Positions 27,975 through 55,369 of a stretch of 64,000 nucleotides of DNA are shown piece by piece. Each line of letters begins with the position of its first letter. The stretch's first letter is position 1. Source of the stretch: Saprospiraceae bacterium (GTDB lineage: Bacteria > Bacteroidota > Bacteroidia > Chitinophagales > Saprospiraceae). The DNA is taken from assembly GCA_035299145.1 (NCBI GenBank), contig DATGWZ010000023.1, positions 681,801-745,800 of the forward strand, given 5' to 3'. Both the position numbers and the translations under genes were made by a program. The notes below the pieces were generated by a model, which was not told where the DNA came from, ran no database searches, and saw nothing but the letters and a program-made list of their open reading frames with translations.

Positions 27975-28009
27975 TTCCAATAATTGGAAATTTATTCCAT
28001 AATTCGGAA
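27975..28009. promoter_or_regulatory. tandem palindromic operator/UAS pair (TTCCA-N5-TGGAA)
   Basis: 27975-27989 TTCCAATAATTGGAA and 27995-28009 TTCCATAATTCGGAA. The starts are 20 bp apart. About 92-126 nt upstream of the ATG at 28101. Confidence 0.6.
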
Positions 28010-28063
28010 CATTTGGTTATATTTTATTAATATACCTTATTGATTATCAATTAGATATAAAAA

Positions 28064-28079
28064 TGGCATTACTTTGGCA
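28064..28079 (+). promoter_or_regulatory. candidate promoter: sigma-54-like TGGCAT-N5-TGGCA, overlapping a sigma-A type TACTTTGG -7 box
   Basis: TGGCATTACTTTGGCA has GG and GC at the canonical -24/-12 spacing. The same bases also contain TAnnTTTG (28070-28077). Confidence 0.4.
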
Positions 28080-28100
28080 CCCATATTACAAAATAAAGAT

Positions 28101-30461
28101 ATGGTGCGCGATATTTATAAGGTAATGGGGCTGATCCCTTCCAATAAACACGAATCAAAAGAAGTGTATGCAGTCAAAAATCCGGACGGGACTATTCGCT
28201 GGATTTGGCCAGTAGAACTTAAAAAACCAGAATTCCTGAGGTTCTATAATGAAAGCCCAACTAAAGCCGCCATTTATGTTGTTTTGATCAAATTAATATT
28301 CTCGTTTCGCTTACAGTCATGGTTTTTTAGCAAACAAAAAGTCAATGTTCCAGATATTTTAGGCGAAAAGTGGGCAATCTTTACTGGGACCATAGGAACG
28401 CAACAGAAATTGGTGATTTATGCCAATGACACTTTTGTTAAATTGCCTGTAGGTAAAAATGCAAAAGTTAGCTTAGAACGTGAAAAATCCACGCTTAATT
28501 GGCTTCAAAAGCAAACTTTTTCAACATTGAAGCATCCAAAAGTAATAGAAAATGGTGACTTTGAATATTGTCAAACTGCCTTTGATAAAAATATAAAAAG
28601 ATCTCCTATTTTAACCAATACACATTTAGATTTTACGCAAGAATTATTCAGTAAATCGCTCCAAAAAGTAACATTAAGTGAAAGTGAATCCTATGTCAAT
28701 TCAATGGCTTTGCTCCGACAATTAGAACACGATCCCAAAATGCCCAAGGGTTTACATGCAAAGCTTTATCTACTCCAATCACAATTAGATCAAGATAAAC
28801 TAACAGATTTTGGATTTGCACATGGAGATTTTACATCATGGAATATGTTTGTCTCCGAAAATAAATTATTTGTCTATGATTGGGAAGCAGCAGATGCAGA
28901 AATGCCCAAGGGATTTGATCTTTTTCATTTCATCATACAACAAGGTATTTTAGTGGACAGGAATGATTGGTCAAAAACTTATCAAGTCTTGTCAGAAAAA
29001 TTATTAAAAAGCGAAAAGCATCCTTTTTTTGAATCTATCGACGAGATGAATAGATATTTGTCCCTATATCTTTTATATCATATCACACGGTCTATGTCAA
29101 ATTATGTGGCACAGAAATGCTGGCACCCTCAGATATATTGGATGATAGATATGTGGAATACAGCATTAGATAACTTGATTGTCAATACATCTCAACGACA
29201 GCTTTTTATCAATACCCTTTTTGATCATTTAAAGCCGATTGAATATGCAGGGATAAAATTATCAGACTCTCATCCGGACTTTTGGTCAGAAGATTCTGAC
29301 ATTGATATTCTGATGAGACAAAAAGACTTAAGTTATATCACTCAATTATGCCATAATTCACCACTGAAAAACAAAGTAGTCACTACATCCAAGTCATTTA
29401 TGGAAAACATAGCTATCTACTTTCACGATGGTAGCTTTTTAAGCCTTGATTTGATACATAAATTAAAAAGAAAAAGCCAAGTATTTTTAGATGCAGACGC
29501 ATTATTAAGTAGATCAATAGTCAATGATCACGGCATCAAAACCTTGCACCCTACAGACGAAATGAGATATATCGTTTGGTTTTATGCTTTGAATAATACC
29601 CAAGTTCCATTTAAATATATGGGCAAAAAAATACATTTGCAATACGCCAATGGAAATGAAGATCTAGCTTTAATGTCATATTGCAAAGGTGATACAATGA
29701 ATGGGATGGCACTAAATAAGATTATTCTAACTAAAGCGGAAAATCGCGGGTGGAAAGGATTAAAAAATAAACTGTTTTATTATATGGATACCATACGTTC
29801 GTTTTTCCAAAATGGTGGCTTAGTCATTACTTTTAGTGGAGTAGATGGCGCCGGCAAATCTACTATTATAGAATATATCAAGTACAAATTAGAAAAAAAT
29901 CTTCGCAAAGATGTGATCGTCCTAAGACATAGACCATCTATACTTCCAATCATCAGTGCGCTAAGACATGGCAAAGAAAAGGCTGAAGCTATCTCCGTAA
30001 GCAAATTGCCGAGAACAGGTCAAAACAAAAACCTATTGTCGTCATTGTTGCGCTTTGGATACTATTATATTGATTTTATTCTAGGCCAATTTTATGTGTA
30101 TGTTAAGTATGTCATGCGCGGCAAAGTAGTGCTTTATGATAGATATTACTTTGATTTTATCAATGATGGTAAGCGATCAAACATCCTTCTACCTACTTCA
30201 TGGGTAAAATTTGGGTATCGATTTTTGCTCAAACCAGATCTTAATTATTTTTTATACGCCGAAGCAGGTACCATACTAGCTAGAAAACAGGAATTAGATA
30301 TCCAAACTATCGAAACGCTTACAAGTGATTATAAAAACCTTTTTGAACATTATGCAAATACTTATACATCAAGTGATTATATATCAATAGCAAACGAAAA
30401 ACTCGACGATACGCTTTCCATATTATTCAGAGGCGTTAAAACAAAAATATCGCAAATATGA
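28101..30461 (+). CDS. three-domain fusion: APH/choline-kinase-like phosphotransferase, nucleotidyltransferase-like middle region, thymidylate-kinase-like P-loop domain
   Basis: FAHGDFTSWNMF...VYDWE (Brenner-type kinase motifs). EDSDIDILM (pol-beta NTase-like DxD). ITFSGVDGAGKST plus LYDRYYFD (Tmk-like P-loop and DRY). I prefer the ATG at 28101; the ORF track starts at the TTG at 28074. Confidence 0.7.
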   Translation: MVRDIYKVMGLIPSNKHESKEVYAVKNPDGTIRWIWPVELKKPEFLRFYNESPTKAAIYVVLIKLIFSFRLQSWFFSKQKVNVPDILGEKWAIFTGTIGTQQKLVIYANDTFVKLPVGKNAKVSLEREKSTLNWLQKQTFSTLKHPKVIENGDFEYCQTAFDKNIKRSPILTNTHLDFTQELFSKSLQKVTLSESESYVNSMALLRQLEHDPKMPKGLHAKLYLLQSQLDQDKLTDFGFAHGDFTSWNMFVSENKLFVYDWEAADAEMPKGFDLFHFIIQQGILVDRNDWSKTYQVLSEKLLKSEKHPFFESIDEMNRYLSLYLLYHITRSMSNYVAQKCWHPQIYWMIDMWNTALDNLIVNTSQRQLFINTLFDHLKPIEYAGIKLSDSHPDFWSEDSDIDILMRQKDLSYITQLCHNSPLKNKVVTTSKSFMENIAIYFHDGSFLSLDLIHKLKRKSQVFLDADALLSRSIVNDHGIKTLHPTDEMRYIVWFYALNNTQVPFKYMGKKIHLQYANGNEDLALMSYCKGDTMNGMALNKIILTKAENRGWKGLKNKLFYYMDTIRSFFQNGGLVITFSGVDGAGKSTIIEYIKYKLEKNLRKDVIVLRHRPSILPIISALRHGKEKAEAISVSKLPRTGQNKNLLSSLLRFGYYYIDFILGQFYVYVKYVMRGKVVLYDRYYFDFINDGKRSNILLPTSWVKFGYRFLLKPDLNYFLYAEAGTILARKQELDIQTIETLTSDYKNLFEHYANTYTSSDYISIANEKLDDTLSILFRGVKTKISQI

Positions 30462-31183
30462 AAAACTTACTTCTATACTTCATTAGAAAGAGAAATCCTG
30501 ATTTTGTGATCGACAACGCTATAAGTAGTCGCTTTCTATTGGGATACATGCTTTCACTAGCTATAAAGGTGATGCGTGGTAGCAAGTTGTTTTTTATGGG
30601 TAGAAATCCCAAAGGGATGATACTTTCCTCTGGTGTAAAAATGACTTATCTATCTAAAATACAATGGGGTAAATTCCTAAAATTGGGTAAAAATGTAAGC
30701 CTAAGTGGATTGGGAAAAGAGGGCATCATCTTTGGTGACAATGTTAGTATAGGTGACTATAGTCAGATCATTGTCGCTACTACACTACAGAATATTGGAA
30801 AAGGTATTCACATCGGTCATCATGTGGGTATTGGAGAGTTTGCGTATCTTGGTGGTGCAGGTGGCTTAACTATAGGAGATGACTGTATCGTAGGTCAATA
30901 CTTTAGCTGTCATCCCGAAAACCACAATTTTAAAGATGTAGACTCACTCATCAGATTTCAAGGCGTGCAACGTAAAGGCATTATTATTGGCAAAAATTGC
31001 TGGATAGGAAGCAAAGTTACGATACTTGATGGCGTGGCAATTGGTGATGGTTGTGTAATAGCAGCAGGGGCAGTAGTCAATCAGTCTTTTCCTGCCAATA
31101 CCATCATAGGTGGTGTGCCGGCAAAAATAATAGGGCAAAGATGTCCTGAATTATCTTTTCACAAGATAAAAAATATTGCCTAA
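30458..31183 (+). CDS. hexapeptide-repeat (LbH) acyl/acetyltransferase
   Basis: Repeated [LIV]-G-x4 hexapeptides, e.g. IGKNCWIGSKVTILDGVAIGDGCVIAAGAVV. ATGA overlap with the upstream gene. Confidence 0.8.
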   Translation: MKNLLLYFIRKRNPDFVIDNAISSRFLLGYMLSLAIKVMRGSKLFFMGRNPKGMILSSGVKMTYLSKIQWGKFLKLGKNVSLSGLGKEGIIFGDNVSIGDYSQIIVATTLQNIGKGIHIGHHVGIGEFAYLGGAGGLTIGDDCIVGQYFSCHPENHNFKDVDSLIRFQGVQRKGIIIGKNCWIGSKVTILDGVAIGDGCVIAAGAVVNQSFPANTIIGGVPAKIIGQRCPELSFHKIKNIA

Positions 31184-32404
31184 ATGAAAACGATTCTTGC
31201 CACCACTTATGCAGTAAATCCATATAAAGGATCAGAAGATGGAATGGGATGGAATTTTGTGTTGCAAATAGCAAAAAACAATAAAGTCATAGCCATCACT
31301 AGGAAAAACAATAGAATGGACATTGAAAAATATATGTCTTCAAACCCAAATGATCTTTATGAAAATATGACTTTTCTTTATTTTGATTTGCCATACTGGA
31401 TGCGATGGTGGAAAAAAGGTGGCCGTGGTGCCATGCTTTATTACTGGATGTGGCAGAAAGGCATCGTTTCTTTTGTTAAAAACCAAAGTCTAGAATTTGA
31501 TATAGTGCATAACCTTAATTTTCACAATGACTGGACTCCCAGTTATTTATGGCAATTGGGCAAACCATTTGTATGGGGACCTGTAGGTCACCATCCATTG
31601 ATTCCAAGTCAATACCTTAAGGAATATTCATTCAAATATTTTTTAAAGGATCGGGCGACTTGGCTTATTAAAAATTATTTCTGGAAAGTCAATACATCCC
31701 TAAAGAATACAGCTGCAAAAGCAGATTTCGTTTGGTGCATGAATGACGCTGTACCTAGTAAACTCCATCTTAAACCAAAGCAGTACCAAATAATTCCTTC
31801 AGTAGCAACCCAAGATTTCGGTTTTATAGAAGGTTCGGAGAATGAAAATTTCACATTTATCTCTGCGGGTAGATTAGTTCCATTAAAGGGTTTTGATCTT
31901 GCTATTCGAGCTTTTACAACGTTTTATAATACCTTAAGTGATATAGAAAAAGCAAAAACAAAACTCATCATTGTTGGTAGTGGACCAGAAGATAAACTAC
32001 TTATAAAACTAGCTAGAGATTTAGGAGTAGAAAATAATATCCAATTTGTACTGTGGATGGAAAGGAATGAACTTATGAAATTATTTAAACAGTCGCAAGT
32101 ATTCCTATTCCCATCTCATGAGGGAGCTGGCATGGTCGTCCCTGAAGCTTTGTCATTCGGTCTGCCAGTGATTTGTCTCGACAATTGTGGCCCTGGTAGT
32201 TTTATAAACGAACAATGCGGTATTAAAATAAAGGAAGATACATATGATAATACCACAGTCAATCTAGCAGAAGCGATGCGAACTTTATATTCGGATAAAG
32301 CAAAATACAAAGGATTGAGACAAGGCGCAAGAGCACAGTTTGAGCATGTTTTTCATTGGGATAGACGTGGTGAACAATTGGCCAAAATTTATGACTCTTT
32401 ATAA
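31184..32404 (+). CDS. glycosyltransferase family 4 (GT-B fold)
   Basis: C-terminal FLFPSHEGAGMVVPEALSFGLPVI (EX7E motif). Confidence 0.8.
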   Translation: MKTILATTYAVNPYKGSEDGMGWNFVLQIAKNNKVIAITRKNNRMDIEKYMSSNPNDLYENMTFLYFDLPYWMRWWKKGGRGAMLYYWMWQKGIVSFVKNQSLEFDIVHNLNFHNDWTPSYLWQLGKPFVWGPVGHHPLIPSQYLKEYSFKYFLKDRATWLIKNYFWKVNTSLKNTAAKADFVWCMNDAVPSKLHLKPKQYQIIPSVATQDFGFIEGSENENFTFISAGRLVPLKGFDLAIRAFTTFYNTLSDIEKAKTKLIIVGSGPEDKLLIKLARDLGVENNIQFVLWMERNELMKLFKQSQVFLFPSHEGAGMVVPEALSFGLPVICLDNCGPGSFINEQCGIKIKEDTYDNTTVNLAEAMRTLYSDKAKYKGLRQGARAQFEHVFHWDRRGEQLAKIYDSL

Positions 32405-32411
32405 ATAAACC

Positions 32412-33497
32412 ATGAGAATATTTGCCTTTCATCTCCTAAACGATTATAGTGGTAGTCCTAAAGTATTAAAACAACTTGTCAATGGTTGGACCAATAACGG
32501 TATGGATTGTCATATAGTCACATGCAGCGGGAGAGAAGGGTTTTTGTCAGATATCAAAGGGGTAAAATATCACCATTATTGGTATAGATTTGCTCAGAAT
32601 CCATTCTTGAGATTGATTTTTCTAATGATCAGTCAGTTGCTTTTGATTATTAAAATGTATCCTGTCATCACAAAAAGCGACGTAATATACGTCAATACAG
32701 TGCTGCCCTTTGGTGCAGGAATATTAGGAAAGTTAAAAGGGTGTAAAGTCATATATCATATCCACGAAACAAGTATGAAACCTTGGATATTGAAAAAAAT
32801 TCTATTTGGAATTGCAGACGCTACATCCACAGAAGTAGTTTATGTATCCAAATATCTATCTGAACAGGAAACGATGAAAAAACCTGGACATGTGCTGTAC
32901 AATGCTTTGGAAACTTCTTTTTTGTCCAAAGCATTATTAAACAGAAAAGTGACACCTGATTATAAAAATGTGCTGATGATATGCTCCCTCAAAGCATACA
33001 AAGGTGTGAATGAGTATTTACAACTAGCAAAAAAAAATCCAGAATATGCTTTCCGACTTGTAGTGAATGCTTCTGCCATGGACATAGAAGTATATTTTGC
33101 AGGTCAAAATCTTCCGCAAAACTTAACGATATTTCCTACACAAAAAGATGTACATCCACAATATCAATGGGCTGATGTGGTCCTTAATTTGTCTCGTCCT
33201 GATGGATGGGTAGAAACATTTGGCCTTACAGTCATCGAAGCAATGGCTTATGGTCTCCCTGTCATAGTGCCTCCCGTAGGAGGAATAGCCGAGCTCGTAG
33301 AGAAAGGTGTTAATGGCTATAAAGCCGATAGCAGAAACGTCAATCACATATCACACCTGCTTGTGGATATATTGGAAGATAAAATACACTACGAAAAACT
33401 CAGTACCTACGCCAAGCAACTGATTGTCAAATATGACGAAGATAGTTTTGTGATGAAGAGTTGCGAGATGTTGAAAGATGAGCGTATTGCTCAATAA
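32412..33497 (+). CDS. glycosyltransferase family 4 (GT-B fold)
   Basis: ETFGLTVIEAMAYGLPVIVPPVGGIAELV motif. Confidence 0.8.
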   Translation: MRIFAFHLLNDYSGSPKVLKQLVNGWTNNGMDCHIVTCSGREGFLSDIKGVKYHHYWYRFAQNPFLRLIFLMISQLLLIIKMYPVITKSDVIYVNTVLPFGAGILGKLKGCKVIYHIHETSMKPWILKKILFGIADATSTEVVYVSKYLSEQETMKKPGHVLYNALETSFLSKALLNRKVTPDYKNVLMICSLKAYKGVNEYLQLAKKNPEYAFRLVVNASAMDIEVYFAGQNLPQNLTIFPTQKDVHPQYQWADVVLNLSRPDGWVETFGLTVIEAMAYGLPVIVPPVGGIAELVEKGVNGYKADSRNVNHISHLLVDILEDKIHYEKLSTYAKQLIVKYDEDSFVMKSCEMLKDERIAQ

Positions 33498-33516: not shown

Positions 33517-33551
33517 GCCCAATCGTTGGAAATGTTTTCCATTATCTGGAA
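33517..33551. promoter_or_regulatory. tandem operator/UAS pair (degenerate plus perfect TTCCA-N5-TGGAA)
   Basis: 33517-33531 GCCCAATCGTTGGAA and 33537-33551 TTCCATTATCTGGAA, in a 20-bp register. They lie in the only intergenic gap of the plus-strand glycosyltransferase arm. Confidence 0.55.
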
Positions 33552-33603
33552 AATCTAAAAAATAAAAATTACATAATAGATTGATATTCAATTATATAAA
33601 TAC

Positions 33604-33635: not shown

Positions 33636-34856
33636 ATGAATATGACATCTTTAAAACAAAAAATAGCCATCATAGGCACAGTAGGTCTCCCAGCCAAATA
33701 TGGTGGATTCGAAACATTGGCTGAGCATCTTGTAGACAATATGAGTGATGATTATGACATCACCGTCTATTGCTCTGGAAAGAAATATGCACAGGCTGAC
33801 CGTCAACCCAAATACAAAAATGCTCATCTTGTATATTTACCTTTGGATGCCAATGGGATTCAGAGCATACCTTATGATTCTTGGTCTATAATCCATGCAT
33901 TGTTTTATGCAGATGTACTTTTGATATTAGGAGTTGCTGGAGCATGGATGCTACCGTTTGTAAAATTTTTTACAAATAAAAAGATCATTATTTCTATAGA
34001 TGGTATTGAATGGAAACGGAACAAATGGAGCAGACCTGCCAAGTGGTATCTATGGTGGGCAGAAAAAATGGCCGTAAAATATTCTCATATTGATATTTCA
34101 GATAATGAATCTATACAAGATTATACAGCGGTCAGATATGGGACTCTAAGCAGAATTATAGAATATGGAGCAGATCATACAATGACGGTTCCTGTACAAA
34201 CTTCATTAAAAACTTCTTATCCATTTCTTGGATTGCCTTACGCTTTTAAAGTATGCCGAATCGAACCAGAAAATAATGTGGATATTGTACTAAGTGCATT
34301 CTCAAAACTACCCAAACACCGTCTAGTCATCATAGGCAACTGGAATAATAGTGATTATGGCAAAAACCTTAAAAAAAAGTACAGCTCTTTTAATCATATC
34401 TTTTTGTTAGATCCAATCTATGACCAATCGACCTTAGATATGATACGTGGTAATGCATTCCTTTACATACATGGACACTCTGCCGGAGGTACCAATCCTT
34501 CCTTAGTAGAAGCTATGTATCTGGGCTTACCTATTTTTTCTTATGGTGTTACCTACAATCGCACGACAACAGAAAACAAAGCCAGATATTTTTATAATGA
34601 AGAAGAACTTATAAATCTAATTAACAATACCCAAATTGCAGAAGTAAAATCTATCGGCAATACAATGAAGGAGATTGCCTATCGTAGATATACATGGAAA
34701 ACAATAGCTGATAAATACCGGGCATTAATACGAGAAGTTTTAGTTAGCGAGCCGAAATCATCTATCACGCCTTCGGTAACTTTATTACCGGCAGGAGAGT
34801 TGCTAAAACGAGAATTATATCACCTACATTTCCAAAAACTGTTTTTCCAAAAATAA
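33636..34856 (+). CDS. DUF1972-type glycosyltransferase (rhamnosyl/glucosyltransferase WchF-like)
   Basis: N-terminal IAIIGTVGLPAKYGGFETLAEHL (DUF1972 pattern) and C-terminal GGTNPSLVEAM. Confidence 0.75.
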   Translation: MNMTSLKQKIAIIGTVGLPAKYGGFETLAEHLVDNMSDDYDITVYCSGKKYAQADRQPKYKNAHLVYLPLDANGIQSIPYDSWSIIHALFYADVLLILGVAGAWMLPFVKFFTNKKIIISIDGIEWKRNKWSRPAKWYLWWAEKMAVKYSHIDISDNESIQDYTAVRYGTLSRIIEYGADHTMTVPVQTSLKTSYPFLGLPYAFKVCRIEPENNVDIVLSAFSKLPKHRLVIIGNWNNSDYGKNLKKKYSSFNHIFLLDPIYDQSTLDMIRGNAFLYIHGHSAGGTNPSLVEAMYLGLPIFSYGVTYNRTTTENKARYFYNEEELINLINNTQIAEVKSIGNTMKEIAYRRYTWKTIADKYRALIREVLVSEPKSSITPSVTLLPAGELLKRELYHLHFQKLFFQK

Positions 34857-34862
34857 ATAATC

Positions 34863-42318: not shown

Positions 42319-42385
42319 TTTAAAACCTATCAATTTATTCCTATGTTATTGATAATGTGATTATTATGAAAGAGGATTGATTTTT

Positions 42386-48099: not shown

Positions 48100-49371
48100 C
48101 TACACCTTCCTAACCATCATCTTTTCTACTCTCGTTAGATACTTTCTATTATCAAAAGCAATCATAAATATCACCAATTGGTAAAAAAGTATGCCATAAT
48201 TAGACTCTCCGAAAATACCGAACTCTGTAAATGAATTGATAATCACAGGGATTAACATGCCTAGCAACATGAGTTTTATCTCTTTATTTTCCCTAAAGAT
48301 GCCGCGTAATGTAAATATCATCTGAAATATCACCAGCGTCAGTCCTACAAATCCTAAATTCATCAATACCTGCATAAAAGTATTATGAGTCATCTTGCCA
48401 GGATAAGTGTGTGTACTCTGAAAAAACTCTTTGTAGTCAATACGCATAAACCCAAAACCCAATAAAGGTTCTCTAGGCAATCCTTCACTGATAAGGGCTT
48501 TCCAGAAAGGTAACCTTCCTGTCATACTCATGACTTCTTCGAGTCTTTCTGTGTCTCCACCTTTAAGTACTACTTTCCAAATGGCAACTGGCGCAATGAT
48601 AAGCATACCCGCGATGATAAGTGCTTTGAGTTGTTTTTTGTCAGACTGACTAATATGAAAGTAAATAATTAACAAAGCTCCGATCAACGATGATCTCGAA
48701 CCTGTGGCATACAGGGCATAAAAAATGACGATTAATTTTACAATAGTCCATACTGTGTGATGCTTACGATATAAATCAAAAATCAAGCAAGCTACACCTA
48801 CACCCGCAAGCATACCGAGTTCATTGGGATTCATAATATACCCGCCAAGTCTTGCTTCTTCACCACCGTGGGTCAGCCTGTAAAATGTATCAGGATCGAC
48901 AAACATACCTACGACAAATATCAGAATAAGGATAAAAACCGTATTGCCCAATAAATTGTAGAGTTTGGTCGTATTGTTGGGAAAGTAGATATTTAATAAG
49001 GCTATACTTTTGACAAAAAAGTAACAAAATACCAGACTTTGCATCGTCATAAACCACTGCAACGCACTAAAACCTACATTTGTACTCCACAAAAAAGACA
49101 AAAATCCAAGACCAAGATAAGCAAAATACAATCTTGATGCCAATACATTCTTTGCTACCAAAGTATCTGGTGCACCATTATTTACAATTCGTCGGTAGAT
49201 TAGATAGGATCCTATCAATACACCCATGCGACCTACTACTTTGATGACTCTTGTGATGATAATATTTTCACTCCACGTAAAAAAGCCTGCCACCATTAGA
49301 AATAATAGGACAAATAACCATGTATTGATACTTTTCAGAAATTCTGCCTCATTAAAATTTTTATATCTCAT
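48100..49371 (-). CDS. O-antigen ligase/polymerase family (Wzy-like) membrane protein
   Basis: About 10-12 TM helices, ATGSRSSLIGAL motif in a periplasmic-loop context typical of the Wzy_C family. Confidence 0.7.
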   Translation of the reverse strand: MRYKNFNEAEFLKSINTWLFVLLFLMVAGFFTWSENIIITRVIKVVGRMGVLIGSYLIYRRIVNNGAPDTLVAKNVLASRLYFAYLGLGFLSFLWSTNVGFSALQWFMTMQSLVFCYFFVKSIALLNIYFPNNTTKLYNLLGNTVFILILIFVVGMFVDPDTFYRLTHGGEEARLGGYIMNPNELGMLAGVGVACLIFDLYRKHHTVWTIVKLIVIFYALYATGSRSSLIGALLIIYFHISQSDKKQLKALIIAGMLIIAPVAIWKVVLKGGDTERLEEVMSMTGRLPFWKALISEGLPREPLLGFGFMRIDYKEFFQSTHTYPGKMTHNTFMQVLMNLGFVGLTLVIFQMIFTLRGIFRENKEIKLMLLGMLIPVIINSFTEFGIFGESNYGILFYQLVIFMIAFDNRKYLTRVEKMMVRKV

Positions 49372-50477
49372 ATCCCGTACATCTCATCAAATTGTGGTAA
49401 AATTGCTGACCATGCAAAATGGGTTTTTACCATAATTTTTGCGTTTTCACCTTTGGGCAAAAGTTTATTTTTTTGCCATTCAGCGTAAAGTGTCATCAAT
49501 CCTGTGGTTATTTCTTTTGAACTTTCATTGATTACAGCTATACCAGCATCATATTTTTCTATGGTTTCGGCTACATTTGTTGCCTGACTCACAATGCAAG
49601 GCAAACCCATTGATGCTGCTTCCAATACAGAAGCCGGTAGTCCTTCGTTACGAGAAGGATGGGCAAAAACATGCATTTCAGACATGATGTTTTCTTTAAC
49701 TTGACCGAATTTACTTCCGAAAAGTTTAACTTTATTGACCAATTTTTTTTCGATTATCATAGCTTGAAGTGTCTCCCTTTCATCACTATCTCCCAATATC
49801 CAGAGCTCTGTCTGTGGCATCTGTTTTGTAAAAGCTTCAAAAGCATCGACCAATAAATCCAGACCTTTGGTATAAATATCCAGTCTTCCTACAAATCCTA
49901 TGATGAACTTCTGGCTGTCATTTGCTATTGCCAAAGTCGGTGGCTGTGACTCGAAACCATAAGGAAGAAGAAAACTCTTATTATTATCAAAGATCGTAGC
50001 CAATCCCAAAGTCTCGCTTTGTCCGATACAATGTATTTTATAAGCAGATCGAAGGACATTTTTTTCAAATAGTTGGAAATACATCTTCTTAACCAAAGCA
50101 CTCTTTTGCATGGCAATCGTATTATATCCACCATGTGGTGTCACAATATATCTAGCATTGTATTTTTTAAGTGTACTTGCTACTGCCCAAAAGGTAGATA
50201 CCCAAGATCCATGTATGTGGAAAACAGCTTTATTTGCATGGGCTTTGATGGCTGCTTTCAGTGTGCTGTCCAAGGCAAAATGATGTTTGCCCAATGGAAA
50301 TAGTAAGGTTGAAAAAGCTCGCTCTGGAAAATTTTTGATTGGATCTTTTGTGATGCCCCACACAGAGACATTTCTACCAGATTCAGCTTGTTTGGTGGCG
50401 AGTTGGAATACTACTTTATTGACGCCATTCATCCTTTCTGGATTGGCTTTACCCAAGACTATGTGAATGATTTCCAT
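49368..50477 (-). CDS. glycosyltransferase family 4 (GT-B fold)
   Basis: HPSRNEGLPASVLEAASMGLPCIVS (EX7E). 4-nt overlap with the downstream gene. Confidence 0.8.
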   Translation of the reverse strand: MEIIHIVLGKANPERMNGVNKVVFQLATKQAESGRNVSVWGITKDPIKNFPERAFSTLLFPLGKHHFALDSTLKAAIKAHANKAVFHIHGSWVSTFWAVASTLKKYNARYIVTPHGGYNTIAMQKSALVKKMYFQLFEKNVLRSAYKIHCIGQSETLGLATIFDNNKSFLLPYGFESQPPTLAIANDSQKFIIGFVGRLDIYTKGLDLLVDAFEAFTKQMPQTELWILGDSDERETLQAMIIEKKLVNKVKLFGSKFGQVKENIMSEMHVFAHPSRNEGLPASVLEAASMGLPCIVSQATNVAETIEKYDAGIAVINESSKEITTGLMTLYAEWQKNKLLPKGENAKIMVKTHFAWSAILPQFDEMYGI

Positions 50478-51709
50478 AATGATCTTTCTTTTTTATGTAA
50501 TGAATATTGCCATATGGCGAAGAGTACTAATTGGTTTAGCCCTAGGCCTATGATGGCACCTGTGAGTTGGAAATTTGAGAGTAAATATGATGCTGTCGAT
50601 AAACTTAAGGCAAAAGAGATGATATATCCACTTAGAAATAAATGATTCATTTCATGCAATCTGATAAGCATTCTGACAGGATAATTTATCAATATGATTA
50701 CATACAATATAACCATCCATCTGATCACAAAGCCATAAGTGATATATGCTTTTCCACCTGCTAAAAGTATGATTTGATCTGCAAATACAAACATGACTAA
50801 CAGAATAATAACTACTGGAAATATCGTTTTGACTATCAGTGTCTTTAAATATTCGTAAGCTACTTGTTTAGATTGCTGAAAACGGATAGACGCTTGTGGT
50901 AAAACATAACTTTCTATGCCTTGTAGCAATACATTGATCAATCCAAATAATGTCTGTACCAATCTAAATGCACCAAGTGCCTCCACACCTAAAATCAAAC
51001 CTGATGTTGCCACAAAAAAATTGGATGTCAACCATTGTACAATTGCTGTGGGAGCTAACCATTGAGCTTGTTTAAAATGGGTCTTTAGAAAATCTAAGCT
51101 TTCTGTTTTGATATATGTTGAGTTAATCAAATTACCTATAAAAAAAACAATACTTGGCAAAAAACCCAAAGTCATTAATAGTAATACCTGTGATATGCTA
51201 AGTTCTAAAAGATAGGTTATAGCAGCGGCGGCTATTTGTGAGAATGTCACCAATAATTCAATGACAACAAGTTTGTTCATCTTATTTTCGACCAACAATC
51301 TCTTGCGTACATAGTCAAAAAGGATCGTAGTTATTGCATAAGCACCTGCAGGAAATAATACCATCGACCAACCGAAATCGTAATATCTATCTAAAAAGTA
51401 AATGAAGCTCACAGCAAAAAATGTAATTAACATTACACCTAATTGCATCAGAACGGTGGCAGATAAATAGCTCTTATTTTCTTTGTGAGTACCATACAAA
51501 ACTTGCATAGGTTGTACGACAAAAGCACTAGAAATACTCATCAATAAAAAAGTATATAACTGTATCGATACAAAGACACCAAAATCATAAGCTTGTAGCG
51601 TCCGTGCAAAAATAAGAATGGTAAAAAAAGTAGTACCACTATATAATGCTTGATCTAGGATAACTTTCGTTTTGTCCGTAAATAGTATGCTTTTAAGACC
51701 AAATTTCAT
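50459..51709 (-). CDS. oligosaccharide flippase (Wzx/MOP superfamily)
   Basis: 416 aa, about 12 TM helices. Position between the wzc-like gene and the glycosyltransferase. Confidence 0.7.
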   Translation of the reverse strand: MKFGLKSILFTDKTKVILDQALYSGTTFFTILIFARTLQAYDFGVFVSIQLYTFLLMSISSAFVVQPMQVLYGTHKENKSYLSATVLMQLGVMLITFFAVSFIYFLDRYYDFGWSMVLFPAGAYAITTILFDYVRKRLLVENKMNKLVVIELLVTFSQIAAAAITYLLELSISQVLLLMTLGFLPSIVFFIGNLINSTYIKTESLDFLKTHFKQAQWLAPTAIVQWLTSNFFVATSGLILGVEALGAFRLVQTLFGLINVLLQGIESYVLPQASIRFQQSKQVAYEYLKTLIVKTIFPVVIILLVMFVFADQIILLAGGKAYITYGFVIRWMVILYVIILINYPVRMLIRLHEMNHLFLSGYIISFALSLSTASYLLSNFQLTGAIIGLGLNQLVLFAIWQYSLHKKERSLWKSFT

Positions 51710-53910
51710 ATCAAAGATTTTTTGACTGGTTTTGTCATAAATTTCTTTACTATTTGGATCATCTCAGAGATTATATTTGGATTGTATTGATATCTGTTTA
51801 ATACGAAATGTACATTAGAAAATTTAAATTCATCACACAGTAGGTTATATTGCAAGATAGCTTTTTTGGGTGTATACCTTGCATCCAAAAAAACCAAATT
51901 ACAGTCACTTAATGACATCCAGGCATTGGACAATATTCCATCTGTAACACTTTCATTATTGATTAATACGAGATCATATTGGTCTAAATGTTGGATGGTA
52001 TATGTCTCGAGAGCATCAAGTGTTTTATGAGTGAATTTTTCAATATCCAATCGTAGATAATCGACATTTGACAGCTTTGTTTTCAGCGGACTTTCGCTGA
52101 TTTCTTCGATATTGGACAATATTCCTTCAGCGTCTAGAATGAGTACTTTTCTACCCTGTAATCCCAAGACTTCTGCTACATTTACAAGATGTAATACTTT
52201 CCCTTCATTTGTTTTTGCGGACGTGAAGCACACTATTTCTTTATCTTGGATGACTTCTTTTACAAACAAATTTTGAACGGATTTTAAGAAATGCTTTCGC
52301 AAAGCTTCAGGAGATTTTAAGTACGGCGTATGTAATGTGACAGGCAAAGTAGAATTAGATTCTATACTCTCCACATCATTTACCCTTGCTTTTAAAGCAT
52401 GAACTATAGTGATCAATGCTATCGCGAAAAACATACCCAATAGCGCACATACAATGATAATTATCGGTCTATTAGGTGATACGGGATTTTTAGATATCGC
52501 AGCAGGAGTAATGATTCTATGGAATGATAATTTTGCTGCTCGCGCTATATCTGCTTCTATTTTTTTGTTATTGAGAAAATTGTAAGAACCCTGAAAAATT
52601 TCGAAGTCCCTATTCATCATATTCATAAGCTTTTCCTTTTCTGGGAGACCTATAAATACTTTTTCTGCTTCTTCGATATCGTCATTCAGATTTTTATATT
52701 TTGTGTCTAAGCTTTTTTTAGTGTTTTGTATACTTTCTACGAGATAATCCGTGTGGTCTTTGATCTTTTTGTCCACGAGTCTTACCCTTTCATCGTTAGC
52801 TGTATATGTAAGCAATAAGTCCTTTTTTTCACCCTGTAGCTGTTTTATTTTTTTAACCATCTCGGTAGAAAGCAAGTCTGTAAACGCTTCAAAATTTGGT
52901 GCCAAATCCAGAAAATTATCTTTACCACGTGCGATATAGTCATTCAATTCGTGGATAGCCTCAAGATTCATTTTTATATTGGTCTGTTGAATTTTCAGTT
53001 GAGATATTTTACGTAAATCTGTTTCTGTTTCCTGACGTATATTTATAATATTTTTATCGTCTCTATAACCTTGGATATTATTCTCTGAGTTGCTTAGCTT
53101 TTTAGACACTTCATCTATTCTATTATTAAGAAATTGTGATGTCGTCTCTGCAGCTTGATATTTAATACTGATATAATCATCGATGTAGGCACTAGCAAGA
53201 GCATTTACAAATACAGCGGCTTTTTCTGGAACAGCACTTTTGTAACTGATACGTATCACAGGCACATCTTTATCTACAGATGTTACATCAAGGTGGGTCA
53301 ATACTTCTTGTATCAGTGCCTCTTTGTTTTTTACTTGATAAACATAGGTACCTATAATAGTCATGTTTGGTTTTTCTTCCAATAATGGTCTATTTATACC
53401 TACCAAAAGTTTTCCTCCTTCAAATTGTAGACTTTCATCCATTTTTCCAGCCAGGGTGGTTCCTATATTTGGTAAGGTTAAGGTATAGTTTTCTGTATCT
53501 TTGACATTAATGATAAAATCCTTTCCATACCACTGATCGTCTTCTATCGACATTTGCAGATTGATAGGTGAGTCATTGTAAAGTTCTGTATTTTTGATGG
53601 CTCCTTTTCTATATAATGTCGTGTGATATCCTATTTTGTCTAATACTTTTTCAAGTAGTACATGAGATTTGATCACTTCTATTTCAGCCGCAATTTTATT
53701 AGCACTAGCAAACACGTCCAAGTCTTTAAATAAGTTGGCTCCTGTCACACTTTCTCCTACATCTGCAAGTCTAAGTTTTGTCGTACTTTCGTACATGGGT
53801 GTCGTGTAAGACAGATACTTTTTTGCTATCCAGATCCCTGCCACCATACACAAGATGATGATGGGTAATCCACGAAGGTAAGGTTTTAAGATTTTAAGAC
53901 TTTCTTCCAT
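51706..53910 (-). CDS. Wzc/GumC-like polysaccharide co-polymerase with a degenerate C-terminal BY-kinase-like domain
   Basis: N-terminal TM, Wzz-like domain, long coiled coil, second TM. The C-terminal P-loop region reads FTSAKTNEGKV / VLILDAEG / LVLINNES instead of GEGK[ST] / DxDxR / DTPP. Confidence 0.75.
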   Translation of the reverse strand: MEESLKILKPYLRGLPIIILCMVAGIWIAKKYLSYTTPMYESTTKLRLADVGESVTGANLFKDLDVFASANKIAAEIEVIKSHVLLEKVLDKIGYHTTLYRKGAIKNTELYNDSPINLQMSIEDDQWYGKDFIINVKDTENYTLTLPNIGTTLAGKMDESLQFEGGKLLVGINRPLLEEKPNMTIIGTYVYQVKNKEALIQEVLTHLDVTSVDKDVPVIRISYKSAVPEKAAVFVNALASAYIDDYISIKYQAAETTSQFLNNRIDEVSKKLSNSENNIQGYRDDKNIINIRQETETDLRKISQLKIQQTNIKMNLEAIHELNDYIARGKDNFLDLAPNFEAFTDLLSTEMVKKIKQLQGEKKDLLLTYTANDERVRLVDKKIKDHTDYLVESIQNTKKSLDTKYKNLNDDIEEAEKVFIGLPEKEKLMNMMNRDFEIFQGSYNFLNNKKIEADIARAAKLSFHRIITPAAISKNPVSPNRPIIIIVCALLGMFFAIALITIVHALKARVNDVESIESNSTLPVTLHTPYLKSPEALRKHFLKSVQNLFVKEVIQDKEIVCFTSAKTNEGKVLHLVNVAEVLGLQGRKVLILDAEGILSNIEEISESPLKTKLSNVDYLRLDIEKFTHKTLDALETYTIQHLDQYDLVLINNESVTDGILSNAWMSLSDCNLVFLDARYTPKKAILQYNLLCDEFKFSNVHFVLNRYQYNPNIISEMIQIVKKFMTKPVKKSLI

Positions 53911-53934: not shown

Positions 53935-53950
53935 GTATATGATAAAGCCA
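53935..53950 (-). promoter_or_regulatory. TGGCT box (weak sigma-54 -24-like) inside the loop of an 11-bp inverted repeat
   Basis: The minus strand reads TGGCTTTATCATATAC, 40 nt upstream of the ATG at 53910. The inverted-repeat arms are 53927-53937 and 53953-53963. Confidence 0.25.
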
Positions 53951-54013
53951 TTTACATACCAAGATGTATTATATTGATAATTAATTACTTATGAAATGTT
54001 TGAATAGAATGTA

Positions 54014-54047
54014 TTCCATTTATTAGATACAAATCCAAATATTGGAA
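54014..54047. promoter_or_regulatory. operator/UAS pair (half-site plus ATCCA-N5-TGGAA) between wza and the wzc-like gene
   Basis: TTCCA at 54014-54018 (right half degenerate) and 54033-54047 ATCCAAATATTGGAA, in a 19-bp register. Confidence 0.5.
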
Positions 54048-54808: not shown

Positions 54809-55239
54809 TATAAGAAAAGATTTGCAAGTTTTTGAAGTGGTTTATTTTTCTTGTTGATGATCAACTGATGGATTTCACCTATTCTATATAATACTTTGGT
54901 GATTTTATCAGTAGTATCACTTCCTTTTATGATGTAATCAAAAGCACCATACTTGAGTGAGTCAATAGCTGTAGTCATATCTTCTTGTCCGGAAACCATG
55001 ACTACATAAATATTAGGATCAAATCGTTTGATTTTTTTTAATACTTCAAAACCATTTAAATCATCCATCTGATGGTCAAGAAGTACTATGCCAGGCTTTT
55101 CTGTTAATTCATTTAGACAAGAAGTCCCATTTGAAAAGCAAGTCACATCGTCATATCCTAGATTTTGGAGATGTTGTTTAAAGATTGTAGACGTAAAGAT
55201 GTCGTCGTCAGCTATAAAGATTTTTTTTGTATTGATCAT
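54808..55239 (-). CDS. stand-alone CheY-like response regulator receiver protein
   Basis: IFIADDD...VLLDHQMDDLNG...VVMVSGQ...DYIIKG. No output domain. The stop overlaps the wza start (TAATG). Confidence 0.85.
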   Translation of the reverse strand: MINTKKIFIADDDIFTSTIFKQHLQNLGYDDVTCFSNGTSCLNELTEKPGIVLLDHQMDDLNGFEVLKKIKRFDPNIYVVMVSGQEDMTTAIDSLKYGAFDYIIKGSDTTDKITKVLYRIGEIHQLIINKKNKPLQKLANLFL

Positions 55240-55267
55240 GGTAACATATTTTTGTTATGTTACTATA

Positions 55268-55283
55268 AACGAAGGTTATGCCA
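55268..55283 (-). promoter_or_regulatory. TGGCAT box (sigma-54 -24-like; the -12 reads TCGTT)
   Basis: The minus strand reads TGGCATAACCTTCGTT, 44 nt upstream of the ATG at 55239 and 60 nt from the centre of the palindrome. Confidence 0.35.
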
Positions 55284-55335
55284 ATTTACAAATAATTGAT
55301 ATACAGCTATATACAAAATAATAAAAAATTTTAAA

Positions 55336-55369
55336 TTCCATATTTTGGAATCAATTCCACATGAAAGAT
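55336..55369. promoter_or_regulatory. operator/UAS pair (perfect TTCCA-N5-TGGAA plus half-site) in the divergent receiver-wza / GH53 intergenic region
   Basis: 55336-55350 TTCCATATTTTGGAA and TTCCA at 55355-55359, in a 19-bp register. Confidence 0.55.

What the first reader, a model, noticed from the sequence alone, without database searches (positions are those of the whole stretch)
27975..55369. Locus-restricted palindrome AWTTCCA-N5-TGGAAWT, in 19-20 bp phased pairs, ahead of five transcription units of the EPS locus
The following sites can be read directly in the sequence.
- 27975 TTCCAATAATTGGAA and 27995 TTCCATAATTCGGAA, ahead of the kinase-fusion/glycosyltransferase operon.
- 33517 GCCCAATCGTTGGAA and 33537 TTCCATTATCTGGAA, in the only gap inside that operon.
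- 42284 (left half only) and 42304 TTCCATAATTTGGAA, ahead of the 1537-aa T9SS protein.
- 54014 (left half only) and 54033 ATCCAAATATTGGAA, between wza and the wzc-like gene.
- 55336 TTCCATATTTTGGAA and 55355 (left half only), ahead of the receiver-wza genes.

Each locus has a strong site plus a second site (near-perfect at 27995, degenerate at the other four loci) whose start is 19-20 bp away. That is two helical turns, so both sites face the same side of the DNA. Scanning by eye, I found no copy in the intergenic regions of the other ~36 kb of the window, and none in front of the regulator operon at 36125.

Paired dyad sites about 90-140 bp upstream of start codons are the classic layout of enhancer-binding-protein UAS elements. 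The only DNA-binding regulator encoded inside the locus is the NtrC-type response regulator at 36125..37498. The motif would place glycan assembly, glycan export and a secreted FG-GAP protein in one regulon. I do not recognise this dyad as a described operator.
Basis: partly seen in the sequence, partly recalled or inferred. Interest (0 to 1): 0.85.

Follow-up and report, generated by a model that had tools for sequence, protein, structure and literature searches.

The report
Sigma-54 enhancer sites of polysaccharide locus
A paired DNA palindrome (TTCCA-N5-TGGAA) sits about 60 and 80 bases upstream of sigma-54-type promoters in front of five gene groups for making and exporting a surface polysaccharide, is conserved in front of the same genes across distant Bacteroidota, and is most likely the docking site of the activator protein encoded inside the locus.

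Summary
The window has 5 exact TTCCA-N5-TGGAA copies against 0.14 expected. Four are intergenic, each with a weaker partner 19-20 bp away.

All five sites have a sigma-54-like -24/-12 element (TGGCAY...TTGG) starting 60-62 bp downstream of the proximal dyad centre. None has the Bacteroidota sigma-A box, whereas the regulator operon does.

In 80 related loci there are 22 intergenic exact dyads against 0.55 expected. All lie about 100 bp upstream of orthologues of the same genes or of the regulator genes. They occur in Flavobacterium, Saprospiraceae, Mucilaginibacter and a 61% G+C metagenome organism, and only where the orthologous REC-AAA+-HTH activator is encoded.

The likely mechanism is a tandem upstream activating sequence bound by the in-locus NtrC-family activator. 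That activator is probably fed by the adjacent FIST (NosP-like) protein and hybrid kinase. The design matches Vibrio fischeri SypG and its syp enhancers, but the sequence, phylum and inputs differ. I found no description of this motif. It is a well-supported new member of a known kind, of moderate interest. Binding and sigma-54 dependence remain untested.

The parts
27975..27989 (.). Unit A distal dyad TTCCAATAATTGGAA (exact)
   Evidence: matrix score 22.2 bits, rank 2
27995..28009 (.). Unit A proximal dyad TTCCATAATTCGGAA (1 mismatch)
   Evidence: matrix rank 5; centre lies 62 bp from the -24 T
28040..28050 (.). Unit A spacer palindrome TTGATTATCAA, candidate site for a bending protein
   Evidence: This class occurs in 8 of 29 sites against a 0.7% background, always 21-28 bp upstream of the -24 T.
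28064..28079 (+). Unit A sigma-54-like -24/-12 element TGGCATTACTTTGGCA. It overlaps the listed TTG start at 28074, so the real start is probably the ATG at 28102.
   Evidence: Nearly the same element (TGGCATTCGGTTGGCC) precedes orthologues of the kinase-fusion gene in 61% G+C contigs L100 and L177.
28102..33497 (+). Target unit A: kinase-fusion protein (APH-like plus thymidylate-kinase-like), hexapeptide transferase, two GT1 glycosyltransferases
   Evidence: Pfam
33517..33531 (.). Unit B distal degenerate dyad GCCCAATCGTTGGAA (2 mismatches)
33537..33551 (.). Unit B proximal dyad TTCCATTATCTGGAA (exact)
   Evidence: matrix rank 1
33581..33591 (.). Unit B spacer palindrome TTGATATTCAA
33604..33619 (+). 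Unit B -24 element TGGCAC, 60 bp from the dyad centre. The -12 region (TTGTA) is one base off the canonical register.
   Evidence: Orthologous promoters occur in L001, L002 and L048.
33636..35969 (+). Target unit B: DUF1972/GT1 glycosyltransferase and WecA-like GT4 initiating transferase
   Evidence: Pfam
36103..36110 (+). TACCTTTG, which matches the Bacteroidota sigma-A -7 box TAnnTTTG, ahead of the regulator operon. There is no dyad and no TGGC element here.
   Evidence: consensus from PMC9723704
36125..37498 (+). Proposed binder: response-regulator-type sigma-54 activator (REC, AAA+ with GAFTGA, C-terminal HTH ...LDIGKSTIYNMIKSGE)
   Evidence: Pfam. Full-length alignment to Aquifex NtrC4 (4L4U), including its DNA-binding domain. 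The C-terminus gives only a weak HTH_17 match.
37502..38629 (+). FIST N+C protein, homologous over its full length to NosP but far below the equivalog cutoff
38652..42230 (+). Hybrid histidine kinase (PAS, GAF, HisKA, HATPase, REC, Hpt)
42284..42298 (.). Unit C distal half-site TTCCAATAAGAAACA (4 mismatches; weak)
42304..42318 (.). Unit C proximal dyad TTCCATAATTTGGAA (exact)
   Evidence: matrix rank 3
42373..42400 (+). Unit C promoter region with an unresolved register. Either AGGATTGA...TTGGC starting at 42373 (62 bp from the dyad centre) or TGGCAT starting at 42385 (74 bp from the dyad centre, with a non-canonical -12).
   Evidence: The same arrangement occurs in L001. Distances of 68-73 bp occur in other lineages.
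42425..47038 (+). Target unit C: 1537-aa FG-GAP/ASPIC protein with a T9SS C-terminal sorting domain
   Evidence: Pfam. Orthologues preceded by the dyad occur in L001 and L005. The gene is absent from the closest relative, L002.
48100..53910 (-). Target unit D: Wzc-like chain-length protein, unknown 416-aa protein, GT1 glycosyltransferase, Wzy-like polymerase
   Evidence: Pfam
53946..53961 (-). Unit D -24/-12 element TGGTATGTAAATGGCT
   Evidence: 60 bp from the proximal dyad centre
54014..54028 (.). Unit D proximal degenerate dyad (2 mismatches)
54033..54047 (.). Unit D distal dyad ATCCAAATATTGGAA (1 mismatch)
   Evidence: the same site occurs in L002
54059..55239 (-). Target unit E: stand-alone receiver protein (143 aa) and Wza-like exporter
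   Evidence: Pfam. Orthologues of this receiver gene are the most frequent dyad target in other genomes.
55268..55283 (-). Unit E -24/-12 element TGGCATAACCTTCGTT
   Evidence: 60 bp from the proximal dyad centre
55336..55350 (.). Unit E proximal dyad TTCCATATTTTGGAA (exact)
   Evidence: matrix rank 4
55355..55369 (.). Unit E distal half-site TTCCACATGAAAGAT (3 mismatches)

Best explanation
The paired dyads are tandem upstream activating sequences (enhancers) for five sigma-54-dependent promoters of an exopolysaccharide locus.

Proposed steps:
1. The regulator operon is 36125-42230: receiver-AAA+-HTH activator, FIST/NosP-like protein, and hybrid PAS/GAF histidine kinase with an Hpt domain. It is transcribed from an ordinary sigma-A promoter.
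2. A signal sensed by the FIST protein and/or the kinase changes phosphotransfer to the activator's receiver domain.
3. The activator's C-terminal helix-turn-helix dimers occupy TTCCA-N5-TGGAA half-sites, which recur every 10 bp. Two dyads lie 19-20 bp apart, so both face the same side of the helix. Their centres lie about 60 and 80 bp upstream of the -24 element, roughly -86 and -106 from the predicted start.
4. The bound activator assembles into the AAA+ ring and reaches sigma-54 RNA polymerase held at the -24/-12 element. An A/T-rich spacer lies between them. In part of the sites it carries a TGATWATCA palindrome that may bind a bending protein.
5. ATP hydrolysis opens the promoter and switches on glycan assembly, polymerisation and export, a T9SS-secreted FG-GAP protein, and a stand-alone receiver protein that may feed back on the phosphorelay.

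What is shown: the sequences, their statistics, their conservation, their fixed geometry, and the domain content of the proteins. What is inferred: binding by this activator, sigma-54 dependence, the signal, the feedback, and the bending protein.
For: - Motif excess: 5 exact copies against 0.14 expected.
- Independent recovery: a matrix trained on other genomes ranks the window's sites first and finds nothing of 10 bits or more outside the locus.
- Promoters: TGG[CT] with G at position 14 occurs 60-63 bp from the proximal dyad centre in 19 of 24 sites, against a 0.9% null rate (binomial p about 1e-34). The consensus is TTTTGGCWYGA-N2-TTGG. Mapped sigma-54 promoters of Flavobacterium psychrophilum, such as TTGGCACGATTTTAGTTGTG, show the same T-R-G-T at -12.
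- Sigma-A boxes: no TAnnTTTG occurs in the five target regions, and one occurs ahead of the regulator operon.
- Conservation: 22 intergenic exact dyads in 170 kb of intergenic DNA from related loci, against 0.55 expected, at 26 times the density seen in coding sequence. All lie upstream of system genes: the receiver-wza operon in 13 or more Flavobacterium and other loci, the kinase-fusion gene (L003, L100, L177), the DUF1972 glycosyltransferase (L001, L002, L048), the FG-GAP gene (L001, L005), or the activator and kinase operons (L018-L020, L024, L048, L109).
- Link to the activator: 18 of 24 loci with the orthologous activator carry an intergenic exact dyad, against 0 of 56 FIST-kinase loci without it (Fisher p = 4e-13).
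- Competence of the activator: it has a receiver domain with the acceptor Asp, Walker A, GAFTGA, and a C-terminal HTH that aligns to the NtrC4 DNA-binding domain.
- Not a repeat: the spacers between the motifs are unrelated (39% identity against 37% expected), so this is not a dispersed repeat.
Against: - There is no transcription-start, binding or mutant data.
- rpoN is not in the window and was not verified for this genome.
- The -12 region of unit B is one base off register. The register of unit C is ambiguous (62 or 74 bp from the dyad centre).
- Partner sites 42284 and 55355 are weak.
- The activator's C-terminus does not reach Pfam's HTH_8 threshold.
- The co-occurrence of activator and dyad is confounded, because loci without the activator also lack the target genes.
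- Some orthologous loci (L022, L028, L051, L075) show no dyad within the 10-kb flanks.
- Most of the first 120 exact double dyads returned from metagenomes belong to unrelated contexts, for example next to a LexA-like S24 peptidase gene, or satellite DNA. The sequence alone is therefore not diagnostic.
- Genome-wide density in this organism could not be measured.
Confidence: 0.8

Rival explanations
1. The dyads are enhancer sites, but a different activator binds them. The candidate is the receiver-less AAA+-HTH_8 protein at 57867-59135 or an unlinked paralogue. The in-locus activator would then act elsewhere.
For: A second sigma-54 activator with a canonical Fis-type HTH lies 2.5 kb from the locus. 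The in-locus activator's HTH scores poorly against Pfam HTH models. Binding is untested.
Against: In Flavobacterium, Mucilaginibacter and metagenome loci the dyads sit next to the REC-AAA+-HTH orthologue, and no second activator gene lies within 10 kb. Dyads ahead of that activator's own operon suggest autoregulation. In F. psychrophilum a sigma-54-dependent regulator gene sits beside lptE, a housekeeping context. Whether that regulator is the counterpart of the miaB-adjacent activator at 57867-59135 was not tested.
Confidence: 0.1
2. The dyads are operators of a conventional repressor or activator acting on sigma-A promoters, and the downstream TGGC elements are incidental.
For: Paired palindromes are also typical of repressor operators. 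An identical double dyad lies next to a LexA-like gene in unrelated metagenome contigs.
Against: The -24/-12-like element occurs at a fixed 60-63 bp in 19 of 24 sites, against a 0.9% null rate. No sigma-A -7 box occurs in any of the five regions. The dyads lie about 85-105 bp upstream of the predicted start, too far for promoter occlusion. No conventional regulator gene is conserved with the sites.
Confidence: 0.05
3. The matches are chance products of A/T-rich intergenic DNA or copies of a dispersed repeat.
For: The window is 35% G+C and the spacers are A/T-rich. Two partner sites are weak.
Against: Shuffles and Markov simulations predict 0.14 copies in the window and 0.55 in the related loci, against 5 and 22 observed. 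The sites are recovered by an independently trained matrix. They are conserved across classes, including a 61% G+C organism. The flanking spacers are not homologous.
Confidence: 0.01

Closest known systems
[quoted passage not shown]
   Same: A polysaccharide locus split into several operons. Each operon has a sigma-54 promoter and a conserved upstream site for a response-regulator-type activator encoded inside the locus. The activator is fed by hybrid kinases. In V. fischeri one input is nitric oxide through HnoX and HahK (PMC10162802; abstract of PMC12369376).
   Different: The site sequences differ: TTCTCANNNTGMDWN for SypG against TTCCA-N5-TGGAA here. This system is in Bacteroidota rather than Vibrionaceae. 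Here the sites form a tandem pair 19-20 bp apart at a near-constant 60 and 80 bp from -24. The auxiliary sensor is a FIST protein rather than H-NOX. The regulon includes a T9SS-secreted FG-GAP protein and a stand-alone receiver.
Enteric NtrC at glnAp2 (tandem TGCACC-N5-GGTGCA sites) and LuxO sites (TTGCAWWWTGCAA)
   Same: The activator has the same domain order. Dimeric HTH binding to an inverted repeat whose half-sites lie about one helical turn apart. Two sites on the same face nucleate the oligomer. The LuxO half-site TTGCA resembles TTCCA (the NtrC details are from general knowledge).
   Different: The half-site sequence differs, and the spacer is N5 against LuxO's N3. The sites lie closer to the promoter, at about -86 and -106 rather than -108 and -140. 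The protein scores below the NCBIfam cutoffs for NtrC (389 against 559) and LuxO (337 against 800).
NosP-type operons (nosR-nosP-nosK; P. aeruginosa NosP/NahK)
   Same: The gene order is response regulator, FIST protein, histidine kinase. The FIST protein is homologous over its whole length to NosP. The kinase weakly matches the NahK/ErcS family. The output is biofilm-related.
   Different: The regulator's output domain is a sigma-54 AAA+ activator rather than a c-di-GMP enzyme. The NosP model score is 71.7 against a cutoff of 450, so nitric oxide or heme sensing is only a lead.
PEP-CTERM/exosortase PrsK-PrsR system and Myxococcus EpsI/Nla24
   Same: Sigma-54 activators of the response-regulator type are encoded with exopolysaccharide loci (PMC1569441; the Myxococcus case is from general knowledge). 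The Wzc-like protein weakly matches the XrtA-system chain-length determinant.
   Different: The PrsR model score is 367 against a cutoff of 503, so this protein is not an equivalog. No exosortase or PEP-CTERM proteins are present. Secretion here is by T9SS.

Membership tests
Sigma-54 (-24/-12) promoter | GG at -24 and G(C) at -12 separated by 10 bp, within a TGGCAC-N5-TTGC-like sequence | tested here: met
   Met at units A, D and E. Unit B is one base off register. Unit C has two possible registers. Across 25 sites the consensus is TGGCWYGA-N2-TTGG, with GG invariant and G14 present in 22 of 25. It resembles mapped F. psychrophilum sigma-54 promoters.
Sigma-54 (-24/-12) promoter | Transcription starts about 12 bp downstream of the -12 element and requires rpoN | not testable with these tools
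   No transcriptome or mutant data are available, and rpoN is not in the window.
Bacterial enhancer (activator-binding upstream activating sequence) | Dyad-symmetric sites, often in tandem, within about 70-150 bp upstream of a sigma-54 promoter | tested here: met
   Dyad centres lie 60-63 and 79-82 bp upstream of the -24 T. In Desulfovibrio, many sigma-54 promoters lie within about 100 nt of the closest activator site.
Bacterial enhancer (activator-binding upstream activating sequence) | Conserved upstream of orthologous target genes and co-occurring with the cognate activator gene | tested here: met
   The caveat is that activator presence and target-gene presence are confounded.
Bacterial enhancer (activator-binding upstream activating sequence) | Physically bound by the activator, and required for activation | not testable with these tools
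   Needs gel shift or footprinting, and reporter mutagenesis.
NtrC-family group I activator (REC-AAA+-HTH) | Receiver domain with the acceptor Asp, and a sigma-54 interaction domain with GAFTGA | tested here: met
   Pfam Response_reg scores 69 bits and Sigma54_activat 240 bits. GAFTGA, Walker A and the aligned Asp are seen in the alignment to 4L4U.
NtrC-family group I activator (REC-AAA+-HTH) | C-terminal Fis-type helix-turn-helix (Pfam HTH_8) | tested here: inconclusive
   HTH_8 is not detected, and HTH_17 scores 22.6 bits, below its cutoff of 27. However, residues up to 450 align with the NtrC4 DNA-binding domain, and the segment LDIGKSTIY(N/K)M is conserved in orthologues.
Named activator equivalogs (NtrC, PrsR, AtoC, LuxO, ZraR) | Score at or above the NCBIfam curated cutoff | tested here: not met
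   All are below cutoff. For example, NtrC scores 389.5 against 558.6 and PrsR 366.9 against 502.6.
SypG/syp-enhancer system | Site consensus TTCTCANNNTGMDWN | tested here: not met
   The sites here are TTCCA-N5-TGGAA. The architecture is the same but the sequence differs.
NosP nitric-oxide sensor with its partner kinase | FIST N and C domains encoded next to a histidine kinase and a response regulator | tested here: met
   Pfam FIST scores 156 bits and FIST_C 134 bits. The gene order is RR-FIST-HK, as in nosRPK.
NosP nitric-oxide sensor with its partner kinase | NosP equivalog score; heme binding and NO response | tested here: not met
   NF041558 scores 71.7 bits against a cutoff of 450. Heme and NO binding are not testable here.

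The most novel reading that the evidence does not exclude
A circuit shared by several classes of Bacteroidota runs from a NosP-like FIST sensor and a hybrid kinase to a dedicated sigma-54 activator. The activator switches on a conserved exopolysaccharide-plus-adhesin regulon through an enhancer of nearly fixed geometry: dyads at about -86 and -106, and a TGATWATCA palindrome near -45 for a bending protein. A stand-alone receiver gene, the most frequent target found in other genomes, provides feedback. This would be an undescribed biofilm switch of the phylum, possibly responsive to nitric oxide or heme.
Probability: 0.3. Interest if true: 0.65.

Novelty: new member of a known kind. Interest (0 to 1): 0.5.

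Why it matters
Sigma-54 regulons and their activators are poorly charted in Bacteroidota. The mapped promoters in F. psychrophilum could not be assigned to particular activators. A 2025 cross-phylum survey highlighted polysaccharide-export genes as sigma-54 targets in Myxococcia, and in the passages I searched it did not list polysaccharide export or biosynthesis among the Bacteroidota enrichments.

This motif gives a concrete, testable regulon: a defined site, a defined activator, five target units here, and orthologous targets in culturable Flavobacterium species. It links a FIST/NosP-like sensory module to exopolysaccharide production and a T9SS cargo protein. It also supplies a matrix for finding further targets in complete genomes.

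Tried and rejected
- Dispersed repeat or mobile element: rejected, because the spacers are no more alike than composition predicts.
- Functional internal site at 54505 in wza: rejected, because it is the codon image of the conserved peptide IEIPKIG and orthologues vary at synonymous positions.
- Known RNA families in the window: none found at Rfam gathering thresholds.
- Unbiased metagenome scan for the exact double dyad. Only about 7 of 120 belong to this system (L100, L109, L142, L177, L178, L192). They are nevertheless informative, because they show conservation in a 61% G+C organism.
- Absolutely rigid spacing: softened. The distance is 60-63 bp in the FIST-linked set, but 68-73 bp in L109, L100, L177 and L142.
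- Covariation between the recognition helix and the site: only a hint. L044 and L051 have IGVSTIYKM and no dyad. L022, L028 and L075 have the usual IGKSTIYKM and also show none within their flanks.
- Literature searches for this motif or for a Bacteroidota polysaccharide activator found nothing specific.
- IHF assignment for the spacer palindrome: only unit E matches WATCAANNNNTTR fully, so this is left as a candidate.

Full report
**Observation.** The window contains five exact copies of TTCCA-N5-TGGAA, against 0.14 expected from dinucleotide-preserving shuffles, and none of 100 shuffles reached five. Four of them (27975, 33537, 42304, 55336) lie in the 12% of the window that is intergenic. 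One-mismatch copies at 27995 and 54033 are also intergenic.

Each strong site has a partner 19-20 bp away. The partners carry 1 mismatch (27995), 2 (33517), 2 (54014), 3 (55355) and 4 (42284). Only about 0.1% of 15-mers have 2 or fewer mismatches, 0.5% have 3 or fewer, and 2.5% have 4 or fewer. The pairing is therefore firm at three loci, plausible at 55355, and unproven at 42284. A weight matrix trained only on sites from other genomes ranks the window's sites 33537, 27975, 42304, 55336 and 27995 first to fifth. It finds nothing of 10 bits or more outside 27975-55350 and nothing ahead of 36125. The 54505 copy spells I-P-K-I-G within the conserved Wza peptide IEIPKIG. Orthologous genes keep the peptide but differ from the dyad at 0-4 positions, all synonymous, so this copy is a by-product of coding.

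**Gene content.**
- 28074-33497: a kinase-fusion protein, a hexapeptide transferase and two GT1 enzymes.
- 33636-35969: a DUF1972/GT1 enzyme and a WecA-like transferase.
- 36125-37498: a receiver plus sigma-54-interaction-domain activator.
- 37502-38629: a FIST protein.
- 38652-42230: a PAS/GAF hybrid kinase with receiver and Hpt domains.
- 42425-47038: an FG-GAP protein with a T9SS sorting domain.
- Minus strand: Wzy, GT1, an unknown 416-aa protein, a Wzc-like protein, Wza, and a 143-aa stand-alone receiver.

A second activator, with AAA+ and HTH_8 domains but no receiver, lies outside the locus at 57867-59135 next to a MiaB-like gene.

Downstream of every pair there is a sigma-54-type -24/-12 element. 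The T of its TGG lies 60-62 bp from the centre of the proximal dyad.
- Unit A: TGGCATTACTTTGGCA at 28064.
- Unit B: TGGCACAGTATTGTA at 33604.
- Unit D: TGGTATGTAAATGGCT at 53961, minus strand.
- Unit E: TGGCATAACCTTCGTT at 55283, minus strand.
- Unit C: either AGGATTGATTTTTGGC at 42373 (62 bp) or TGGCAT at 42385 (74 bp).

Across 24 sites from the window and related loci, 19 have TGG[CT] with G at position 14 at 60-63 bp. The null rate at random intergenic positions is 0.9%, giving a binomial p of about 1e-34. The consensus is TTTTGGCWYGA-N2-TTGG. Experimentally mapped sigma-54 promoters of Flavobacterium psychrophilum are described as typical -24/-12 elements. Examples include TTGGCACGATTTTAGTTGTG (remF), with the same T-R-G-T at -12. 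None of the five target regions contains the Bacteroidota sigma-A -7 box TAnnTTTG in the gene's orientation. The region ahead of the regulator operon has one, TACCTTTG at 36103-36110. The element at 28064-28079 overlaps the listed TTG start of the first gene, so its real start is probably the ATG at 28102.

**Conservation.** The FIST protein was used to fetch 80 loci from species-representative genomes. The closest are Saprospiraceae genomes assembled from metagenomes (76-87% identity), so the window probably comes from that family. FIST-kinase pairs are widespread. In a subset, the pair is preceded by an orthologue of the activator (53-98% identity) and flanked by orthologues of the polysaccharide genes, in a different gene order in Flavobacterium.

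These loci hold 22 intergenic exact dyads, against 0.55 expected from Markov simulation of their intergenic DNA. That is 26 times the density found in coding sequence. All 22 lie roughly 100 bp upstream of system genes:
- the stand-alone receiver gene that heads the wza-wzc-...-wzy operon, in 13 or more loci;
- the kinase-fusion gene (L003);
- the DUF1972 transferase (L001, L002, L048);
- the FG-GAP gene (L001, L005);
- the activator gene itself (L019, L024, L048);
- the kinase-FIST operon (L018, L020, L048).

Eighteen of 24 loci with the orthologous activator have an intergenic exact dyad, against 0 of 56 without it (Fisher p = 4e-13). The caveat is that loci without the activator also lack the target genes. 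The cases of apparent autoregulation, where the dyad precedes the regulator genes and no polysaccharide genes are nearby, are the more specific link.

An unbiased metagenome scan for the exact double dyad added contigs of 61% G+C (L100, L177). There the pair, followed by TGGCATTCGGTTGGCC, precedes orthologues of the kinase-fusion operon. It also added contigs where the pair precedes receiver-gene or FIST-kinase orthologues (L109, L142, L192). The spacers between the dyads and promoters of the five window units are no more alike than base composition predicts (39% against 37%). The shared islands are therefore not copies of a repeat.

**A second element.** A short palindrome (TTGATTATCAA, TTGATATTCAA, and TGATWATC in general) occurs in 8 of 29 spacers, against a 0.7% background. 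It always lies 21-28 bp upstream of the -24 T, near -45 from the predicted start, and it occurs in several lineages. The other three window units have partial copies. It may bind an HU/IHF-type bending protein, and unit E matches WATCAANNNNTTR. This is inference. In several Flavobacterium loci the same stretch is instead occupied by a terminator-like hairpin of the upstream kinase gene, whose T-run abuts the -24 TGGC.

**The activator.** It has a receiver domain with the aligned acceptor Asp, Walker A, GAFTGA and an AAA+ lid. It aligns over residues 10-450 with full-length Aquifex NtrC4 (4L4U), including the DNA-binding helix-turn-helix. Pfam HTH_8 is not detected in the C-terminus, which gives only a sub-threshold HTH_17 match. 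The segment LDIGKSTIY(N/K)M is conserved among orthologues. It differs from the canonical Fis-type helix of the second activator (LGISERTLYRKIKEY), which fits a distinct specificity. The protein scores below every NCBIfam equivalog cutoff (NtrC, PrsR, AtoC, LuxO, ZraR).

The FIST protein matches the NosP model over its full length but scores 71.7 bits against a cutoff of 450. The kinase weakly matches the NahK/ErcS family. The gene order, regulator then FIST then kinase, is that of nosR-nosP-nosK operons, where the regulator usually carries a c-di-GMP domain.

**Mechanism.** The best-supported model is a classical sigma-54 enhancer. Dimers of the activator sit on two dyads on the same face of the helix, at about -86 and -106. 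They oligomerise after phosphorylation through the kinase's Hpt relay and activate sigma-54 polymerase held at -24/-12. The regulator operon itself appears to be sigma-A-driven in this genome and autoregulated in others. The stand-alone receiver, the target most often preceded by the dyad in the related loci (13 or more), could be a phosphate sink or a connector. Confidence is about 0.8 for 'enhancer of sigma-54 promoters' and somewhat lower for the identity of the binder.

Three rivals were weighed:
- a different activator binds the sites (0.1);
- the sites are conventional operators on sigma-A promoters (0.05);
- the matches are chance or a repeat (0.01).

**Comparison with known systems.** The design matches the Vibrio fischeri syp locus, which has several sigma-54 promoters, each with a site for the locus-encoded SypG. 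It also matches tandem NtrC sites. The site sequence differs from SypG's TTCTCANNNTGMDWN and from LuxO's TTGCAWWWTGCAA. A promoter-to-site distance under 100 bp is ordinary for such activators. What stands out is the near-constancy of 60-63 bp across classes, although 68-73 bp occurs in other lineages.

I found no description of this motif or regulon in the searchable literature.

**Verdict.** This is a real, conserved regulatory element and a new member of a known kind.

Noticed in passing
It spells I-P-K-I-G within the conserved peptide IEIPKIG. Orthologues keep the peptide but vary at synonymous positions, so it is a coding coincidence. It has no partner site and no downstream TGGC element.
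   Followed up: yes
window 28040-28050, 33581-33591; partial copies near 42349-42357, 53973-53980, 55295-55302: A second conserved element, the palindrome TTGATWATCAA/TGATWATC, lies 21-28 bp upstream of the -24 T. It occurs in 8 of 29 sites from several lineages, against a 0.7% background. It may be a site for a bending protein (HU/IHF type). It also resembles the core of a Fur box.
   Followed up: partly
window 57867-59135 (-) and 59175-60602 (-): A second sigma-54 activator without a receiver domain (AAA+, lid, canonical HTH_8) lies next to a MiaB-like radical-SAM/TRAM gene, just outside the polysaccharide locus. Its targets are unknown. None of the dyads in other genomes lies near an orthologue of it.
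   Followed up: partly
window 47039-48099: About 1 kb between the convergent FG-GAP and wzy genes has no open reading frame of 100 aa or more and no Rfam match. The closest relative (L002) lacks the FG-GAP gene entirely, with the kinase followed directly by wzy. This junction is therefore variable.
   Followed up: partly
window 28064-28104: The listed TTG start of the 795-aa kinase-fusion gene (28074) lies inside the predicted -24/-12 element. The ATG at 28102 is the more likely start. Likewise, the FG-GAP gene probably starts at ATG 42425, not TTG 42377.
   Followed up: partly
L003 about 15010-15050; also L006, L009, L013 spacers: In several Flavobacterium loci, a G+C-rich hairpin followed by a T-run sits between the dyads and the -24 element, and its T-run merges into TTTTGGC. 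It looks like the intrinsic terminator of the upstream kinase gene. A terminator would then be embedded in the enhancer-promoter spacer.
   Followed up: no
L089, L102, L104, L107, L114, L118, L122, L124, L140, L152, L156, L157 (metagenome contigs, 53-68% G+C): A recurrent double dyad, TTCCACGGTGTGGAAAAGTTTTCCACGGTGTGGAA, occurs in these contigs. In L124 and L102 it lies tens of bases upstream of a Peptidase_S24 (LexA-like) gene. It may be a LexA operator of an unidentified lineage that uses the same half-sites and the same 20-bp phasing.
   Followed up: partly
L083, L087, L093, L108, L113, L116, L119, L136, L193, L196, L197 and others (soil contigs, 66-72% G+C): Another recurrent double dyad, TTCCAGATACTGGAAC-CGAG-TTCCACTATCTGGAA, has a TGGAAC-N4-GTTCCA core. 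No sigma-54-like element follows it and no gene resembles any in this locus. Its function is unknown.
   Followed up: no
L088, L190, L198 (low-G+C metagenome contigs): Arrays of three TTCCA-N5-TGGAA dyads are followed by good sigma-54 elements, for example TGGCATGCCTATTGCT. They precede genes unrelated to this locus: a lamin-tail-domain-like protein, and secreted proteins of unknown function. These may be targets of paralogous activators or further regulon members.
   Followed up: partly
L051 and L044: Two loci have an activator orthologue with IGVSTIYKM instead of IGKSTIY(N/K)M in the putative recognition region, and they show no dyad. In L051 the kinase-fusion operon is present but is not preceded by dyads or a TGGC element. 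This may be a specificity change or a loss of this control.
   Followed up: partly
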